Part shown: in pieces, positions 1-35,492 of the stretch | How the letters are laid out: the number at the start of each line of letters is the position of its first letter | Numbering within the stretch: the stretch's first letter is position 1 | From: a phage | Direction: 5' to 3' (one strand) | Sequence record: PZ386946.1 | DNA: 44,504 nt | Notes under the pieces: generated by a model | What the model was told of the DNA's origin: nothing | Database searches by the model: none | What the model saw: only the letters and a program-made list of their open reading frames with translations | Position numbers and translations under genes: made by a program

Positions 1-1566
1 ATGTCTTTAGTATGGGAAGAAATGACCATTCAGGAAAAGATGGCCGTTAAGGCGATATCAGAACACAGCTTCGAGGGCTTTCTTCGTTGCTGGTTCCAGA
101 TCACGCAAGGCGAGCGATACATCCCTAACTGGCATCACAAGTACTTGTGCAGAATAATTGACGAGATTATCGCAGGAGAGCGCAAGGACACCATCATTAA
201 CATAGCACCAGGCAGCGGAAAGACGGAAATTGCCTCAATCCACTTCCCGGCCTATTCGATGGTTAAGCTTAGGAAGGTGCGCAACCTTAACATCTCTTTT
301 GCTGACTCCCTGGTTAAGCGTAACTCGAAGCGAGTACGCGACCTTATCAAGTCTCAAGAATTTCAGTCACTCTGGCCATGCAAGTTTGGCACTTGCAAAG
401 ACGATGAGCTTCAGGTTCTTGATGAGAGTGGCAAGGTTAGATTTGAGTCAATATCAAAGGCGGCTGGAGGCCAGATTACTGGCGCTCGCGGTGGGTACAT
501 AACCGAAACATACAGCGGAGCCGTTCTTTTGGATGACTTTGACAAACCCGCAGATATGTTATCAGCAGTGTACCGATCGAATAATCACGTAATGCTTAAA
601 AATACGATTCGCTCACGTCGAGCCAGTTCTGTAAAAGGCAAAGCGACACCAATCATTTCGATACAGCAGCGGCTTCACGTCAATGACTCAACCTATTTCA
701 TGATGGAAGGCGGCATGGGTATCGAATTCGATTTGATTAAGATACCAGCATTAGTTACTGAGGATTACATTGATTCACTTCCTGACTGGATTAAAGATCA
801 GTTTGCTGATGACGTACTAAGCAGCGAATACATTGAGCGAGATGGCGTAAAGTACTACAGCTACTTTCCTAAAAAGGAATCCGTAAACGACCTGGTGGCA
901 ATGTGGGATAGCGACCCGTACACATTCCTTAGTCAATATCAGCAGGAGCCAGTAGCACTTGGTGGCAACCTAATTAACGTGGACTGGTTCCAGCGAATCA
1001 GTGATACGTTCAGACCTCCAGCTAAGTACGACTATCGATTCATAACTTGCGATACCGCAATGACCACTAAAAGTTACAGCGACTTCTCTGTTCTTCAGTT
1101 GTGGGGCTATAAAGATGCTAAGATTTACCTTATTGATCAGCGCAGGGGTAAATGGGAGGCCCCAGAGTTGGAGGCTGAACTGCTGGACTTCGAGAAGAAA
1201 TCAAGGGCAACCAGTCAGTCAGATGGTATCCTAAGAAAGATTATTATCGAGAAGAAAGCGTCTGGTATCGGCCTGATTCAATCAGCTGGCAGGGTTATGC
1301 GAACACCGATAGAGTCATACGTACCGGATAATGACAAGCTAACCAGGGTGATGAGTGCACTACCACAGATTAAGGCTGGTAACGTAGTTCTTCCAGAGTC
1401 ATCGCCGTGGCTAAACGGATTGCTCACTGAGGTTGCGGCTTTTACGGCAGATGACTCGCATAAGCACGACGACCAAATTGACTGTCTAACAATGGCGGCA
1501 AACCTTGTACTTAACATCGCGGATGATCCTAAGGCGAGACTAATGCGCATAGCAGGAATTAAATAG
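1..1566 (+). CDS. terminase large subunit
   Basis: 521 aa; Walker A-like APGSGKT and Walker B-like VLLDDFD in N-terminal ATPase, acidic C-terminal nuclease-like region; ATG at position 1 with RBS AAGAGGG at window end (circular permutation); directly follows small terminase across the window junction. Confidence 0.85.
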   Translation: MSLVWEEMTIQEKMAVKAISEHSFEGFLRCWFQITQGERYIPNWHHKYLCRIIDEIIAGERKDTIINIAPGSGKTEIASIHFPAYSMVKLRKVRNLNISFADSLVKRNSKRVRDLIKSQEFQSLWPCKFGTCKDDELQVLDESGKVRFESISKAAGGQITGARGGYITETYSGAVLLDDFDKPADMLSAVYRSNNHVMLKNTIRSRRASSVKGKATPIISIQQRLHVNDSTYFMMEGGMGIEFDLIKIPALVTEDYIDSLPDWIKDQFADDVLSSEYIERDGVKYYSYFPKKESVNDLVAMWDSDPYTFLSQYQQEPVALGGNLINVDWFQRISDTFRPPAKYDYRFITCDTAMTTKSYSDFSVLQLWGYKDAKIYLIDQRRGKWEAPELEAELLDFEKKSRATSQSDGILRKIIIEKKASGIGLIQSAGRVMRTPIESYVPDNDKLTRVMSALPQIKAGNVVLPESSPWLNGLLTEVAAFTADDSHKHDDQIDCLTMAANLVLNIADDPKARLMRIAGIK

Positions 1567-32668: not shown

Positions 32669-33142
32669 ATGATTTACGTATTTGATATCGATGGAACTAT
32701 AGCTAATAATGAGCATAGAAGTCACCTCTTGCCATTAAGCGACCTTCACTTGACTTCAAGTTGGAAGGATTACAATAAAGCCTGTTCTGGAGACTCACCA
32801 ATAATTCCAATGATAAAAATGATGAATGCTTTAGCTGAGTCATCTCAAGTTTACATAATGACCTCAAGAAGTGATGAAGTTGAATGGAGAACCCTTGAGT
32901 GGCTTCAGGATAATGATGTTGAATATGATTCAATACGCATGAGAAGCAGACATGACAACCGAAAGGATTACTTAATTAAAGAGGAGTGGCTAAATAATCT
33001 TTGCGACGGAAAAAAGGAAGAGATAGTTATATTTGAAGATAACCCTCAGGTTATAAAACACTTAAGAAATTGTGGATATGCAGTTATGGCCGTATGTGAA
33101 TATGAAGAGCTACCTAAAGATTGCGAATCTCACGGAGAATGA
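32669..33142 (+). CDS. HAD-family phosphatase (T4 Pnk 3'-phosphatase-like / nucleotidase-like)
   Basis: 157 aa; N-terminal DxDGT motif (FDIDGTIA), further blocks (IMTSRSDE, RHDNRKDYLIKEE, IFEDNPQVI) recalled as similar to the T4 polynucleotide kinase phosphatase domain. Confidence 0.65.
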   Translation: MIYVFDIDGTIANNEHRSHLLPLSDLHLTSSWKDYNKACSGDSPIIPMIKMMNALAESSQVYIMTSRSDEVEWRTLEWLQDNDVEYDSIRMRSRHDNRKDYLIKEEWLNNLCDGKKEEIVIFEDNPQVIKHLRNCGYAVMAVCEYEELPKDCESHGE

Positions 33143-33144
33143 AA

Positions 33145-33699
33145 ATGACTAAATTATTTATCCTTAACGGCCCCGCTGGAGTTGGCAAGGACACTATAGC
33201 GGATATCATGGTTGAGACTGGTGTTGTTGATGGGAAAGTTTCATTCAAGTCACCAATGTTCGATGTAGCCAAGGGGATGCTATCAAAGGATGAATTTGAT
33301 TGGTTTATTGAGAACTACAACAACCGAGACGAGAAAGAAAAGAATCAAGAGATACTTGGCGGTAAAAGCATTCGAGAATTCATGATTTGGATTAGCGAGT
33401 CTGTAATGAAGCCAGTCTTTGGTGATTATGTTTTCGGTAAAAGGCTCGCCCAGTCACTTGGTGATGGTTGCTACATTTGCGCTGACGGTGGGTTTGCTAG
33501 CGAGATTAAGCCACTGATCGACACTGGTGTTGAGGTCACGTTAATCAGGTTGCATAGGGAAGGGTACACATTTTATGGCGATAGTCGCTCATACATTCAC
33601 GGGGTGTGTGCAAGAGAGATTGATGTTCATGTTGTTGATTGTGATATTAATGGAACATCATCATTGGTAAGGCACGTAATAAATAGCACGAATTGCTAA
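33145..33699 (+). CDS. P-loop nucleotide kinase (dNMP kinase-like), paralog 1
   Basis: ATG 33145 (track 33121 is TTG); Walker A LNGPAGVGKDT; overall block pattern recalled as resembling T4/T5 dNMP kinases; C-terminus reads through the motif (ends INSTNC). Confidence 0.65.
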   Translation: MTKLFILNGPAGVGKDTIADIMVETGVVDGKVSFKSPMFDVAKGMLSKDEFDWFIENYNNRDEKEKNQEILGGKSIREFMIWISESVMKPVFGDYVFGKRLAQSLGDGCYICADGGFASEIKPLIDTGVEVTLIRLHREGYTFYGDSRSYIHGVCAREIDVHVVDCDINGTSSLVRHVINSTNC

Positions 33700-33767: not shown

Positions 33768-33944
33768 ATGACTAAAATGATTTACTGCACAAAGAACAAC
33801 TCCAAGACGCTTCCATTTACAGTTAACCAGCCGTACAATGCAGAGTATCAGGGTGACGGATATTACAAGATTTACGGAGACGATATGACGTGGATTTTAG
33901 CACCGATTGATGGTTCGCTGGTTGAATTTATTATCGCAGACTAG
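33768..33944 (+). CDS. hypothetical small protein
   Basis: ATG 33768 (track start 33693 lies in motif); followed by strong terminator 33971..33998. Confidence 0.4.
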   Translation: MTKMIYCTKNNSKTLPFTVNQPYNAEYQGDGYYKIYGDDMTWILAPIDGSLVEFIIAD

Positions 33945-33970
33945 CGCATCTAAAACATAGCTTTACAAGT

Positions 33971-33998
33971 GGGGGGCCTTTTGGCTCCCCTTTTTTTT
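33971..33998 (+). terminator. rho-independent terminator
   Basis: hairpin GGGGGGCC-TTTT-GGCTCCCC followed by TTTTTTTT. Confidence 0.7.
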
Positions 33999-34075
33999 GC
34001 TTCTTTTCCGAACAGGGCTACTGTATCATGTTTACACTAACTTAAACATTGACAAATAGACAAATGGAGGATCAC

Positions 34076-34291
34076 ATGAGGGAAGTAATCAACGCCGCTA
34101 CGGCGTCAACTGGAGGGGCAGCGGTAACTGGCGCGGCAACTGGTCAAATGACTATAGCAATAATCAGCCTTATCGCTCTAATCATTTTTGGTGCGTGGGG
34201 AGCTTACTGGAAGTTTAAAGATAGCCAGGCTATTCGGCGAGCGCTTGAGTCTGGCGACCTAAAAACAGCAATCAATATAAGGAGCAAATAA
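34076..34291 (+). CDS. holin (pinholin-like, putative)
   Basis: 72 aa from ATG 34076 (GGAGG RBS); weakly hydrophobic Gly/Ala-rich segment followed by strong TM helix IAIISLIALIIFGAWGAYW and charged C-terminus; immediately upstream of SAR endolysin. Confidence 0.55.
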   Translation: MREVINAATASTGGAAVTGAATGQMTIAIISLIALIIFGAWGAYWKFKDSQAIRRALESGDLKTAINIRSK

Positions 34292-34777
34292 ATGAAGCAA
34301 AAGCTGCTAATTAGCGCGGCTACGGCTGCGGCAATATACATCGCAGCGCCGCTTATTGAGCTCGTTGAGGGTGTGGAGAACAAGCCTTACATGGACATTG
34401 CCGGAATCCCTACAGTTTGTTCTGGTATTACTGGTCCTGACGTTGTTTGGGGTAAGACTTACAGCAATAGTGAGTGCCGTAACCTGCTGGAGAAACACAT
34501 CCAGATTCATGCTAAGTATGTTCAGGATGCAGTTACCTACCCAATCGCACCGCAGACAAGGGCAGCGTTAATCAGCTTTAGCTATAATGTTGGCGGCTCA
34601 GCGATGAGGAAGTCTACGGCTGTAAGGCTAATCAACCAGGGTAAAGTGGAGCAAGGTTGTAAGGCTTTGAGTCTTTGGAATAAAGCTACCGTTAATGGCA
34701 AGAAGGTTGTGGTTAAGGGCTTGGTAAACCGCAGGAATGAGGAGATTAAGTTATGCTTAAGCGGATTGCAGCGTTAG
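34292..34777 (+). CDS. SAR endolysin (lysozyme, GH24-like)
   Basis: 161 aa; N-terminal signal-anchor-release-like hydrophobic Ala/Gly-rich segment; lysozyme catalytic region ELVEGVENKPYMDIAGIPTVCSG. Confidence 0.8.
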   Translation: MKQKLLISAATAAAIYIAAPLIELVEGVENKPYMDIAGIPTVCSGITGPDVVWGKTYSNSECRNLLEKHIQIHAKYVQDAVTYPIAPQTRAALISFSYNVGGSAMRKSTAVRLINQGKVEQGCKALSLWNKATVNGKKVVVKGLVNRRNEEIKLCLSGLQR

Positions 34778-35142
34778 TAATGTGCGTAGCTTTATATGGA
34801 TGTTCAGCAACATCTGCTCTGACTGGTTTGATTGGCAGTAAGCCAGAGATTAGCGCTCAAGCAGGTGCCGAGAACAATAAGGTTGGTGTTGGGTTAACGA
34901 ACAAGGTTGACTCCAGCAACTCCAGTGAAACCACGGTTAAGGATTCTAAGGTTGGGTCACTTGATAGCTCTAGCGGGAAAAAGACTGCTGACAACTCTAT
35001 TAAGGCCTCAACAATTACCGCCGAAAAGATTGAAATTACCAATAACGAATCATCAGCGCTTCCGTGGGTTGGAACAGGAGCTATGGGGTTGCTTGTTCTG
35101 ATTCTCCCGGCCTTAATCTTAAGACGTAAAAAAGCCTCCTAA
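34753..35142 (+). CDS. unimolecular spanin (T1 gp11-like)
   Basis: 129 aa; N-terminal lipoprotein signal with lipobox LYGCS, Ser/Thr-rich periplasmic region, C-terminal TM helix plus RRKK; embedded in endolysin 3' end. Confidence 0.7.
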   Translation: MLKRIAALVMCVALYGCSATSALTGLIGSKPEISAQAGAENNKVGVGLTNKVDSSNSSETTVKDSKVGSLDSSSGKKTADNSIKASTITAEKIEITNNESSALPWVGTGAMGLLVLILPALILRRKKAS

Positions 35143-35150
35143 TGGAGGCT
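35125..35150. terminator. bidirectional hairpin terminator between lysis cassette and minus-strand operon
   Basis: AAAAAGCCTCC-TAAT-GGAGGCTATATTTTT. Confidence 0.6.
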
Positions 35151-35156
35151 ATATTT

Positions 35157-35492
35157 TTAGCTAAATAACTCGTCGTCAGTCATTGTTCCTATGTTCATCA
35201 TCTCTTTTATGTACTTGCTCTCATACCCGCTAAGCGCCTCGAAATTGAAATCAAACGGCCTCTTCAAGCTACCCTTGCTAACAAACTCACCACACTTACC
35301 ATCAATGTATCCCGCACTAAGCATCTTCGCGCAAAACTCTTTTGAAGCCGCGCTGCAAAACTCTCGATGTGATAAACCCGCCGCCTTGCTGAATCTCTGA
35401 GAGTCCTTATGTTGGTATATGAATCGCGCCAAATGCTGGCGCGTGAAAAAGCTGTAAGATTCGCAAAAACGGTATATATCCAGAATAAACAT
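35157..35492 (-). CDS. hypothetical protein
   Basis: 111 aa, GAGG RBS; last gene of minus-strand accessory operon before bidirectional terminator. Confidence 0.45.
   Translation of the reverse strand: MFILDIYRFCESYSFFTRQHLARFIYQHKDSQRFSKAAGLSHREFCSAASKEFCAKMLSAGYIDGKCGEFVSKGSLKRPFDFNFEALSGYESKYIKEMMNIGTMTDDELFS

What the first reader, a model, noticed from the sequence alone, without database searches (positions are those of the whole stretch)
34076..35142. Lysis cassette resembling pinholin, SAR endolysin and unimolecular spanin
The endolysin has an N-terminal hydrophobic Ala/Gly-rich segment in front of the lysozyme catalytic region, which fits a signal-anchor-release enzyme. The upstream 72-aa protein has a weak Gly/Ala-rich first hydrophobic segment and a strong second helix, which is pinholin-like. 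The downstream 129-aa protein has a lipobox (LYGCS) and a C-terminal TM helix, the hallmark of the unimolecular spanin described for T1 gp11. This supports T1-like ancestry.
Basis: partly seen in the sequence, partly recalled or inferred. Interest (0 to 1): 0.4.

Follow-up and report, generated by a model that had tools for sequence, protein, structure and literature searches.

The report
Ordinary T1-type phage lysis cassette
These three genes are the standard host-bursting module of a T1/Rtp-like coliphage: a small membrane holin, a membrane-tethered lysozyme and a single-chain spanin. The same module is already described in its close relatives, so the finding is correct but ordinary.

Summary
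Window 34076-35142 (+) carries three tightly coupled genes. They encode a 71-aa holin (not 72), a 161-aa GH24 lysozyme and a 129-aa lipoprotein with a C-terminal membrane helix.

- **Source.** The window is a Braunvirinae (Drexlerviridae) phage. This region is 95% identical in DNA to phage CEB_EC3a and 90% to Rtp.
- **Relation to T1.** The proteins are 56%, 45% and 37% identical to T1 gp13, gp12 and gp11, with conserved gene order on both sides.
- **Endolysin.** It matches the phage 21 SAR endolysin R21 (E 1.9e-27) and has the E26-x8-D35-x5-T41 triad. It also has an 18-residue Ala-rich anchor without Cys. A relative with the same first 20 residues lyses E. coli when expressed alone, and azide blocks this.
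- **Spanin.** It meets every sequence criterion of the T1 gp11 family, in which Rtp is already listed.
- **Holin.** "Pinholin" is the weakest part. The first segment is as weakly hydrophobic as phage 21 TMD1. However, there is no sequence similarity to S21, only a two-residue turn, and AlphaFold2 draws one long helix.

Novelty: already known. Interest is low.

The parts
33971..33998 (+). Intrinsic terminator (8-bp G+C stem, then a T run) between the upstream DUF7244 gene and the holin gene. It marks the 5' boundary of the cassette.
   Evidence: Terminator scan. A stem-loop plus T run sits at the same position in Rtp, GaoY1-9D, T1, BIFF, Punny and Sushi. Terminators are annotated there in CEB_EC3a and Sushi.
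34066..34070 (+). Shine-Dalgarno GGAGG for the holin, 5 nt before the ATG.
   Evidence: Read directly from the sequence. Conserved in the alignment.
34076..34291 (+). Holin gene, 71 aa, T1 gp13 family (putative pinholin).
   Evidence: PHROG 2877 holin, E 5.3e-37 over the full length. 56% identical to T1 gp13, E 5e-31. The exact protein equals the annotated holin of CEB_EC3a and 2725-N35.
34085..34141 (+). Holin residues 4-22, VINAATASTGGAAVTGAAT. A weakly hydrophobic, Gly/Ala/Ser/Thr-rich segment that is a candidate releasable TMD1.
   Evidence: Hessa sum +6.7 kcal/mol, Kyte-Doolittle mean 0.91 and 79% G/A/S/T. EssD (phage 21 S-type) TMD1 scores +6.5, 0.59 and 63%. A8, S11, G13, G14, G19, T22 and G23 are invariant in 7 Drexlerviridae holins.
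34148..34210 (+). Holin residues 25-45, MTIAIISLIALIIFGAWGAYW. The strongly hydrophobic TMD2, followed by a charged C-terminal tail.
   Evidence: Hessa sum -1.5 and Kyte-Doolittle mean 2.28 for residues 25-43. F38, G39 and G42 are conserved family-wide.
34292..34777 (+). SAR-type endolysin gene, 161 aa, GH24 phage lysozyme of the R21 class.
   Evidence: Pfam PF00959, E 2.3e-35. PDB 3HDE R21 E 1.9e-27 and 4ZPU RrrD E 4e-28. 45% identical to T1 gp12. Relatives are annotated as SAR endolysin.
34304..34357 (+). Endolysin residues 5-22, LLISAATAAAIYIAAPLI. The signal-anchor-release domain, with no Cys.
   Evidence: 18 uncharged residues between K4 and E23. Hessa sum +1.5 (17-residue window), against +0.15 for RrrD. 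The first 20 residues are identical to those of 57_3Lys, which was studied experimentally.
34367..34414 (+). Catalytic triad motif E26-x8-D35-x5-T41.
   Evidence: Regex match. It aligns with E35/D44/T50 of R21/RrrD.
34739..34744 (+). Shine-Dalgarno GAGGAG for the spanin, inside the 3' end of the endolysin gene and 8 nt before the ATG.
   Evidence: Read directly from the sequence.
34753..35142 (+). Unimolecular spanin gene, 129 aa, T1 gp11 family.
   Evidence: PHROG 1804 Rz-like spanin, E 5.6e-49. 37% identical to T1 gp11, E 1e-23. 96% identical to Rtp when read from the same upstream start. 1131 homologues found.
34753..34803 (+). Lipoprotein signal peptide MLKRIAALVMCVALYG plus the lipidated Cys17. 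The lipobox is L14-Y15-G16-C17 and the +2 residue is Ser.
   Evidence: It matches the PROSITE PS00013-type lipobox pattern, which I recalled from memory. Cys17 and Ser18 are invariant in 11 diverse homologues. LYGC also occurs in 3 of 114 relatives scored and in the isolated phage CEB_EC3a.
35065..35121 (+). Spanin C-terminal transmembrane helix W105-L123, followed by RRKKAS as the cytoplasmic tail.
   Evidence: Hessa sum +0.27 and Kyte-Doolittle mean 2.17. AlphaFold2 predicts a helix at 105-127, the best-scoring block of the model.
35133..35150 (.). Bidirectional terminator hairpin shared with the convergent gp10-like gene (35157-35492, minus strand). It marks the 3' boundary of the cassette.
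   Evidence: Terminator scan found it on both strands. Terminators are annotated at the same place in T1, CEB_EC3a and Sushi.

Best explanation
This is the late lysis cassette of a T1/Rtp-like siphophage (Drexlerviridae, Braunvirinae). It works by the holin / SAR-endolysin / unimolecular-spanin route.

**Shown by sequence and homology**
- The three genes are translationally coupled and bracketed by terminators.
- The middle gene is a GH24 lysozyme of the phage 21 R21 class with an N-terminal signal-anchor.

**Inferred mechanism**
1. The Sec system exports the endolysin. The enzyme stays tethered to the inner membrane by its Ala-rich anchor, with catalytic Glu26 only 3 residues from the bilayer, and is therefore inactive.
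2. The 71-aa holin accumulates in the inner membrane. At a set time it forms small lesions that collapse the membrane potential.
3. The anchor then leaves the bilayer, the enzyme refolds and the cell wall is degraded.
4. The spanin is lipid-anchored in the outer membrane through Cys17 and held in the inner membrane by residues 105-123. Its 87-residue periplasmic stretch is about 29-30 nm if fully extended.
5. Once the wall meshwork is gone, the spanin is free to collapse and fuse or disrupt the two membranes, releasing the progeny.

**Sub-confidences:** u-spanin 0.95, SAR endolysin 0.85, holin acting as a small-hole pinholin 0.6.
For: **Family assignments.** PHROG holin, endolysin and Rz-like spanin with E 5e-37 to 6e-49. 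Pfam Phage_lysozyme E 2.3e-35.

**Relatives.** 95% DNA identity to CEB_EC3a and 90% to Rtp, whose genes are annotated holin / endolysin (SAR endolysin in some records) / Rz-like spanin.

**Relation to T1.** 56%, 45% and 37% identity to gp13, gp12 and gp11. Flanking gene order is conserved: exonuclease 62%, gp14-like 44%, helicase 57%.

**Endolysin.** R21 and RrrD are the best solved relatives. The triad is present and the 18-residue uncharged anchor has no Cys. For a relative with the identical N-terminus, lysis on expression alone and inhibition by azide have been published.

**Spanin.** The lipobox pattern, +2 Ser, absence of periplasmic Cys, and a C-terminal TMD with a basic tail are all present.

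**Literature.** Rtp is listed in the T1 gp11 family, whose members sit in pinholin plus SAR-endolysin cassettes. gp11 complements lambda RzRz1 (PMC6139136).

**Holin.** Its two-segment hydrophobicity profile parallels that of EssD/S21.
Against: - There is no experimental evidence on the T1/Rtp-type holin.
- The holin shows no sequence similarity to the S21-type EssD (E 0.76).
- Only G23-Q24 separate its two segments.
- AlphaFold2 predicts one continuous helix over residues 2-58. The model is weak, with pLDDT about 60 at the N-terminus and only 7 sequences in the alignment.
- The T1 GenBank record describes gp13 as having a single transmembrane domain.
- A SAR endolysin does not by itself require a pinholin.
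- In the preprint, SignalP 6.0 and DeepTMHMM call the first 20 residues of the related endolysin a signal. Non-cleavage has not been shown directly.
- AlphaFold2 gave no confident fold for the spanin periplasmic domain (pLDDT below 50), so the published beta-rich architecture could not be checked.
- No sigma-70-type promoter was found upstream beyond chance.
Confidence: 0.85

Rival explanations
1. The holin is not a phage 21-type two-helix pinholin. Instead it is a single-pass protein (N-terminus out, C-terminus in). Its Gly/Ala/Ser/Thr-rich first 24 residues never enter the membrane, and it may form holes of unknown size. The rest of the cassette works as described.
For: - The turn between the two segments is only two residues long.
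- AlphaFold2 predicts one helix over residues 2-58.
- The T1 record notes a single transmembrane domain.
- There is no similarity to EssD/S21.
- The first segment scores +6.7 kcal/mol on the Hessa scale, so spontaneous insertion is not expected.
Against: - The experimentally established S21-type TMD1 is equally unfavourable, at +6.5.
- The N-terminal segment contains invariant Gly, Ala and Thr positions.
- A +/- residue pair at positions 2-3 (MRE, MKE, MRD) resembles the MDK of S21-68.
- Curated annotations by the group that defined pinholins call the homologues pinholins (PMC6139136; the Sushi record).
Confidence: 0.3
2. The endolysin is a conventionally secreted enzyme. Signal peptidase I removes its N-terminal peptide, and activity is restrained in some other way. 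It would then not be a signal-anchor-release enzyme.
For: - The n-region MKQK followed by a hydrophobic stretch looks like a Sec signal.
- AXA-type sites exist at residues 12-14.
- SignalP 6.0 reportedly recognises a 20-residue signal in the near-identical 57_3Lys.
- Azide sensitivity shows export, not tethering.
Against: - All sites that fit the -3/-1 rule lie in the first half of the hydrophobic stretch. There is no polar c-region.
- A19|P20 is blocked by Pro at +1, and this Pro is conserved in T1, Punny and Sushi.
- RrrD, the near-identical homologue of R21 (uncleaved, from my own knowledge), carries even more such sites, so they do not discriminate.
- Catalytic Glu26 lies 3 residues after the stretch, the same spacing as in RrrD/R21.
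- From my own knowledge of the R21 structures (Sun et al. 2009), the released anchor becomes part of the active fold.
Confidence: 0.1
3. The third gene is an unrelated membrane lipoprotein, for example a superinfection-exclusion factor, and not a spanin.
For: Many phages encode small lipoproteins. Some records call the homologue only 'putative membrane protein' or 'hypothetical protein'.
Against: - It is homologous to T1 gp11, which complements lambda RzRz1 (PMC6139136).
- It is the last gene of the cassette and overlaps the endolysin gene.
- It has anchors for both membranes.
- No other spanin candidate exists in the cassette.
Confidence: 0.03

Closest known systems
Lysis cassettes of Escherichia phages vB_EcoS_CEB_EC3a (gp27-gp25) and Rtp (rtp63-rtp65), Drexlerviridae, Braunvirinae
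   Same: Same three genes in the same order, with the same overlaps and flanking terminators. DNA identity is 95% (CEB_EC3a) and 90% (Rtp). The holin protein is identical to that of CEB_EC3a. CEB_EC3a also has the LYGC lipobox.
   Different: The window's exact spanin sequence is not in the public collection. It carries Pro119 in the membrane helix, seen in none of 120 relatives. Rtp has LSGC in place of LYGC. The RefSeq Rtp record starts rtp65 at internal Met10 and so omits the signal peptide.
Phage T1 gp13 (holin), gp12 (endolysin) and gp11 (prototype unimolecular spanin)
   Same: The genes are homologous and in the same order: 56%, 45% and 37% identity. Topological features are the same. gp11 has been shown to replace lambda Rz/Rz1 (PMC6139136).
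   Different: The sequences have diverged. The window's endolysin and spanin genes overlap by 25 nt. The T1 lipobox is LSGC. T1 has an HNH endonuclease gene between the exonuclease and gp14, whereas the window has a phosphatase gene and a kinase gene there.
Phage 21 / DLP12 pinholin plus SAR-endolysin system (S21/EssD, R21/RrrD, Rz/Rz1)
   Same: The endolysin belongs to the same family (E 1.9e-27 to 3HDE). It has the same E-x8-D-x5-T triad, a Cys-free anchor, and 3 residues between the uncharged stretch and the catalytic Glu. The holin has the same size (71 aa) and the same weak-then-strong hydrophobicity pattern.
   Different: The holin has no detectable sequence similarity to EssD, and it lacks the 8-residue loop between the helices. 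Outer-membrane disruption uses one chain, not the nested two-component Rz/Rz1. The uncharged N-terminal stretch is 18 residues here against 24 in RrrD, and the N-terminus before catalytic Glu is 9 residues shorter overall.
Endolysin 57_3Lys of phage vB-EcoS_57-3 (Veterinaerplatzvirus; preprint 10.64898/2026.09.09.750462)
   Same: The first 20 residues are identical (MKQKLLISAATAAAIYIAAP). It is also 161 aa with the same E26/D35/T41 positions. That phage also carries a single Arg tRNA gene.
   Different: It is a different genome: 45,774 bp against the 44,504-bp window. I could not compare the full protein sequence because that record is not in the collections available here.

Membership tests
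T1 gp11 unimolecular spanin family | N-terminal lipoprotein signal peptide with a lipobox Cys | tested here: met
   MLKRIAALVMCVALYG-C17 matches the PS00013-type pattern (recalled from memory), with K/R in the n-region and the Cys within residues 15-35. The Cys is invariant in 11 diverse homologues. Tyr at -2 is rare (3 of 114 scored) but also occurs in the viable phage CEB_EC3a.
T1 gp11 unimolecular spanin family | Outer-membrane sorting signal (no Asp at +2) | tested here: met
   Ser18 is at +2. Ser occupies +2 in 112 of 114 relatives.
T1 gp11 unimolecular spanin family | C-terminal transmembrane helix with a basic cytoplasmic tail | tested here: met
   W105-L123 has a Hessa sum of +0.27 and a Kyte-Doolittle mean of 2.17, and is followed by RRKK. 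AlphaFold2 predicts a helix at 105-127.
T1 gp11 unimolecular spanin family | Sequence homology to gp11 (published family rule: 40% identity over 40% of the length, with linkage through members) | tested here: met
   37% identity to gp11 itself over 126 aa, E 1e-23. 96% to Rtp and 53% to a TLS-like phage. Rtp and TLS are both listed family members.
T1 gp11 unimolecular spanin family | No Cys in the periplasmic domain | tested here: met
   No Cys after Cys17.
T1 gp11 unimolecular spanin family | Periplasmic domain made of a short helix followed by several beta strands | tested here: inconclusive
   AlphaFold2 gives a helix at residues 20-27. Residues 28-104 have low confidence and no secondary structure.
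T1 gp11 unimolecular spanin family | Disrupts the outer membrane (complements lambda RzRz1) | not testable with these tools
   Shown only for T1 gp11 (PMC6139136).
SAR endolysin, R21 type (class II) | GH24 lysozyme fold with the E-x8-D-x5-T catalytic triad | tested here: met
   Pfam PF00959, E 2.3e-35. 3HDE E 1.9e-27. Triad at E26/D35/T41.
SAR endolysin, R21 type (class II) | N-terminal weakly hydrophobic transmembrane domain rich in Gly/Ala/Ser/Thr | tested here: met
   Residues 5-22. About 50% G/A/S/T and a Hessa sum of +1.5 (17-residue window), against 59% and +0.15 in RrrD.
SAR endolysin, R21 type (class II) | No Cys in the anchor and Asp (not Cys) in the triad, which separates it from the P1 Lyz type | tested here: met
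   No Cys in residues 1-42, and D35 is in the triad.
SAR endolysin, R21 type (class II) | Sec-dependent export without a holin | not testable with these tools
   Reported for 57_3Lys, which has the identical N-terminus: lysis on induction alone, abolished by 10 mM azide.
SAR endolysin, R21 type (class II) | Anchor not cleaved, and released when the membrane potential collapses | not testable with these tools
   Heuristics only: no usable -3/-1 site at the C-terminal end of the stretch, and Pro at +1 of A19.
Pinholin (phage 21 S21-68 type) | Sequence homology to S21 | tested here: not met
   BLASTP against EssD gave E 0.76. The window holin is therefore not a member of the S21 family. At most it is a functional analogue.
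Pinholin (phage 21 S21-68 type) | Two transmembrane helices, the first weakly hydrophobic and releasable | tested here: inconclusive
   The hydrophobicity of residues 4-22 equals that of EssD TMD1. However, the turn is only two residues and AlphaFold2 draws one continuous helix.
Pinholin (phage 21 S21-68 type) | Paired with a SAR endolysin | tested here: met
   The adjacent, translationally coupled gene is a SAR-type endolysin.
Pinholin (phage 21 S21-68 type) | Forms nanometre-scale holes that depolarise the membrane but do not pass a folded endolysin | not testable with these tools
   I found no experiment on any gp13-family holin.
T1 gp13 holin family (PHROG 2877; Pfam PF27028 on the homologues) | Full-length sequence homology | tested here: met
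   PHROG 2877, E 5.3e-37, positions 1-71 of 71. 56% identical to gp13. Homologues carry PF27028.1.

The most novel reading that the evidence does not exclude
The T1/Rtp-type holin may be its own topological class and not an analogue of the phage 21 pinholin. In this reading it is a single-pass protein. Its conserved Gly/Ala/Ser/Thr-rich N-terminal 24 residues would lie in the periplasm or at the membrane surface and would time hole formation or interact with the endolysin's anchor. The family is small: only about 7 genuine representatives at 50% identity among 1.8 billion proteins. It has never been tested, and published annotations disagree on whether it has one or two transmembrane domains.
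Probability: 0.25. Interest if true: 0.35.

Novelty: already known. Interest (0 to 1): 0.08.

Why it matters
It matters little beyond correct annotation. The cassette confirms that the window is a Drexlerviridae (Braunvirinae) phage with the standard T1-type lysis strategy.

Practical points:
- The spanin must be called from the upstream ATG at 34753. Some RefSeq relatives (Rtp, DTL) start at the internal Met and lose the lipoprotein signal.
- Endolysins of this type are being explored as antibacterials.
- The gp13-type holin remains experimentally uncharacterised.

Tried and rejected
1. **Embedded second spanin gene, like Rz1.** Alternative-frame ORFs inside the cassette (34356-34571 and 34907-35101) have no lipobox. 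They are open only in the closest relatives and not in T1, BIFF, Punny, Sushi or GaoY1-9D. I rejected them as chance.
2. **Regulatory RNA structure or promoter upstream of the holin.** The RNA fold had z = 0.66. The sigma-70 scan found 4 sites against 4.4 expected, none placed to drive the cassette. A conserved CATTGACA lies too close to the ATG to serve as a -35 element.
3. **Dual-start holin/antiholin motif, as reported for TLS.** The window has a single Met at the start, MREV....
4. **AlphaFold2 model of the spanin.** The periplasmic domain was not modelled (pLDDT below 50), so I ran no fold search.
5. **AlphaFold2 model of the holin.** It gave one long helix from a shallow alignment, which does not decide the topology.
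6. **Word-indexed search for holin homologues.** It returned only 8 close relatives. The exhaustive search returned 11, of which about 7 are genuine.
7. **J Virol 2018 paper on T1 gp11 localisation (PMC6206483).** It is not held in the library.
8. **NCBIfam.** It gave no informative names.
9. **Rfam.** It found only the tRNA.
Full report
**What is there**

Window 34076-35142 holds three consecutive + strand genes.

- **Holin, 34076-34291.** It encodes 71 aa, and a GGAGG lies 5 nt upstream of the ATG.
- **Endolysin, 34292-34777.** It encodes 161 aa, and its ATG directly follows the holin stop codon TAA.
- **Spanin, 34753-35142.** It encodes 129 aa. It overlaps the endolysin gene by 25 nt and has its own GAGGAG.

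An intrinsic terminator precedes the unit at 33971-33998. A bidirectional terminator hairpin follows it at 35133-35150. Both are at conserved positions in relatives.

**Where the window comes from**

This region is 95% identical in DNA to Escherichia phage vB_EcoS_CEB_EC3a and 90% to Rtp. The structural half of the window is 87-88% identical to other Braunvirinae.

Relatives annotate the three genes as holin, endolysin or SAR endolysin, and Rz-like spanin or u-spanin.

Against T1, the proteins are 56% (gp13), 45% (gp12) and 37% (gp11) identical. The flanking genes keep the T1 order:

| Window gene | T1 counterpart | Identity |
|---|---|---|
| exonuclease | gp16 | 62% |
| DUF7244 protein | gp14 | 44% |
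| helicase | gp09 | 57% |

T1-like ancestry is therefore confirmed.

**Endolysin**

- Pfam Phage_lysozyme matches with E 2.3e-35.
- The closest solved structures are RrrD (4ZPU, E 4e-28) and the phage 21 SAR endolysin R21 (3HDE, E 1.9e-27).
- The motif E26-x8-D35-x5-T41 is present and aligns with the R21 triad.
- Residues 5-22 (LLISAATAAAIYIAAPLI) are 18 uncharged residues, about half of them Gly/Ala/Ser/Thr. The Hessa-scale sum is +1.5 kcal/mol, against +0.15 for the RrrD anchor, so this anchor is if anything easier to release.
- The anchor has no Cys, which places the enzyme in the R21 class and not the P1 Lyz class.
- All sites fitting the -3/-1 signal-peptidase rule lie in the first half of the stretch. 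A19|P20 is blocked by a conserved Pro at +1. RrrD, the near-identical homologue of R21 (known to be uncleaved, from my own knowledge), has more such sites, so they do not discriminate.

A September 2026 preprint (10.64898/2026.09.09.750462) studied the endolysin 57_3Lys of a related phage. It has the identical first 20 residues, the same length and the same triad positions. Induction alone lysed E. coli, and 10 mM azide abolished that lysis. This shows export. It does not show directly that the anchor is retained, and the same paper reports that SignalP calls the segment a signal.

**Spanin**

- The n-region carries K3 and R4, and the h-region runs from I5 to L14.
- The lipobox is L-Y-G-C17 and the +2 residue is Ser.
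- The sequence fits the PS00013-type pattern, which I recalled from memory.
- Cys17 and Ser18 are invariant across 11 diverse homologues, including KP34-like and Pectobacterium podophages.
- Tyr at -2 is rare: LSGC 91, LTGC 14 and LYGC 3 of 114 scored. LYGC also occurs in the isolated phage CEB_EC3a, so it is not a sequencing artefact.
- W105-L123 followed by RRKK forms the inner-membrane helix.
- The mature protein has no other Cys.
- Kongari et al. 2018 (PMC6139136) list RTP in the T1 gp11 family. They state that nearly all members sit in pinholin plus SAR-endolysin cassettes, and that gp11 complements lambda RzRz1.
- The 87-residue periplasmic stretch would measure about 29-30 nm if fully extended. 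This fits the published model of a chain that spans the envelope and then collapses. That step is inference.
- AlphaFold2 did not model this domain.

**Holin**

- PHROG 2877 matches over the full length with E 5.3e-37.
- The protein is identical to the annotated holin of CEB_EC3a.
- Residues 4-22 score +6.7 kcal/mol and are 79% Gly/Ala/Ser/Thr. This is almost the same as TMD1 of EssD, the phage 21 S-type protein, at +6.5 and 63%.
- Residues 25-43 are strongly hydrophobic, at -1.5.
- The N-terminal segment has invariant Gly, Ala and Thr positions, and it stays Gly/Ala/Ser/Thr-rich across the whole small family.

Evidence against a phage 21-like hairpin:
- There is no sequence similarity to EssD.
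- The turn is only two residues long.
- A low-confidence AlphaFold2 model shows one helix over residues 2-58.
- The T1 record notes a single transmembrane domain.

The literature calls these proteins class II pinholins by prediction only. "Pinholin-like" is therefore reasonable but unproven.

**Comparison and verdict**

The cassette is the published T1-type module: holin or pinholin, then SAR endolysin, then u-spanin (PMC6139136; PMC13164509).

Only three small details are particular to this window:
- the LYGC lipobox;
- Pro119 in the spanin helix, absent from 120 relatives;
- an exact spanin sequence not yet present in public collections.

Novelty is "already known" and interest is low.

Noticed in passing
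window 33768-33944 (+): A 58-aa gene just upstream of the holin matches Pfam DUF7244 (E 3.8e-29) and is 44% identical to T1 gp14. A 2026 paper (PMC13164509) describes this standalone SH3-like protein as a possible accessory of the Drexlerviridae lysis module. In the window, an intrinsic terminator separates it from the holin gene.
   Followed up: partly
window 32669-33142 and 33121-33699 (+): A HAD/PNKP-type phosphatase gene (Pfam E 1e-17) and a P-loop kinase-like gene lie between the exonuclease gene and the DUF7244 gene. CEB_EC3a lacks both. PMC13164509 reports only seven Drexlerviridae genomes in which such kinases occur together with the SH3-like gene.
   Followed up: partly
L001 3380-3742 (Rtp rtp65); protein P0053 (phage DTL): The RefSeq records for Rtp and DTL start the spanin at the internal Met10, giving 120 aa. 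That removes the lipoprotein signal, so the lipobox pattern no longer matches. The upstream ATG, which overlaps the endolysin gene, restores it.
   Followed up: yes
window 35107-35109 (spanin codon 119) and 34795-34797 (codon 15): Two unusual residues in the spanin. Pro119 sits in the middle of the membrane helix (LILPALIL) and is seen in none of the 120 closest relatives. Tyr15 sits at lipobox position -2, as in 3 of 114 relatives and in CEB_EC3a.
   Followed up: partly
window 43593-43670 (+): A single tRNA-Arg (anticodon TCT) gene was found by ARAGORN and by Rfam (58.5 bits). The preprint on the related phage vB-EcoS_57-3 also reports one Arg tRNA.
   Followed up: no
window 1-1566 (+): The window begins exactly at the ATG of the large terminase gene and is about the length of a whole Braunvirinae genome (44.5 kb). 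It is probably a complete phage genome re-oriented to start at terL.
   Followed up: no
window 1-25000 versus 33900-35300: The lysis region is closest to Guelphvirus CEB_EC3a (95%). The structural half is closest to Veterinaerplatzvirus, JulesPiccard and IME253 (87-88%). This suggests a mosaic genome or a new species within Braunvirinae.
   Followed up: no
L010 1049-1438 (Vibrio phage Vc1): The annotated endolysin of this Drexlerviridae phage lacks both the N-terminal anchor and the region around the catalytic Glu in my alignment. The cause may be a misannotated start or a degenerate gene.
   Followed up: no
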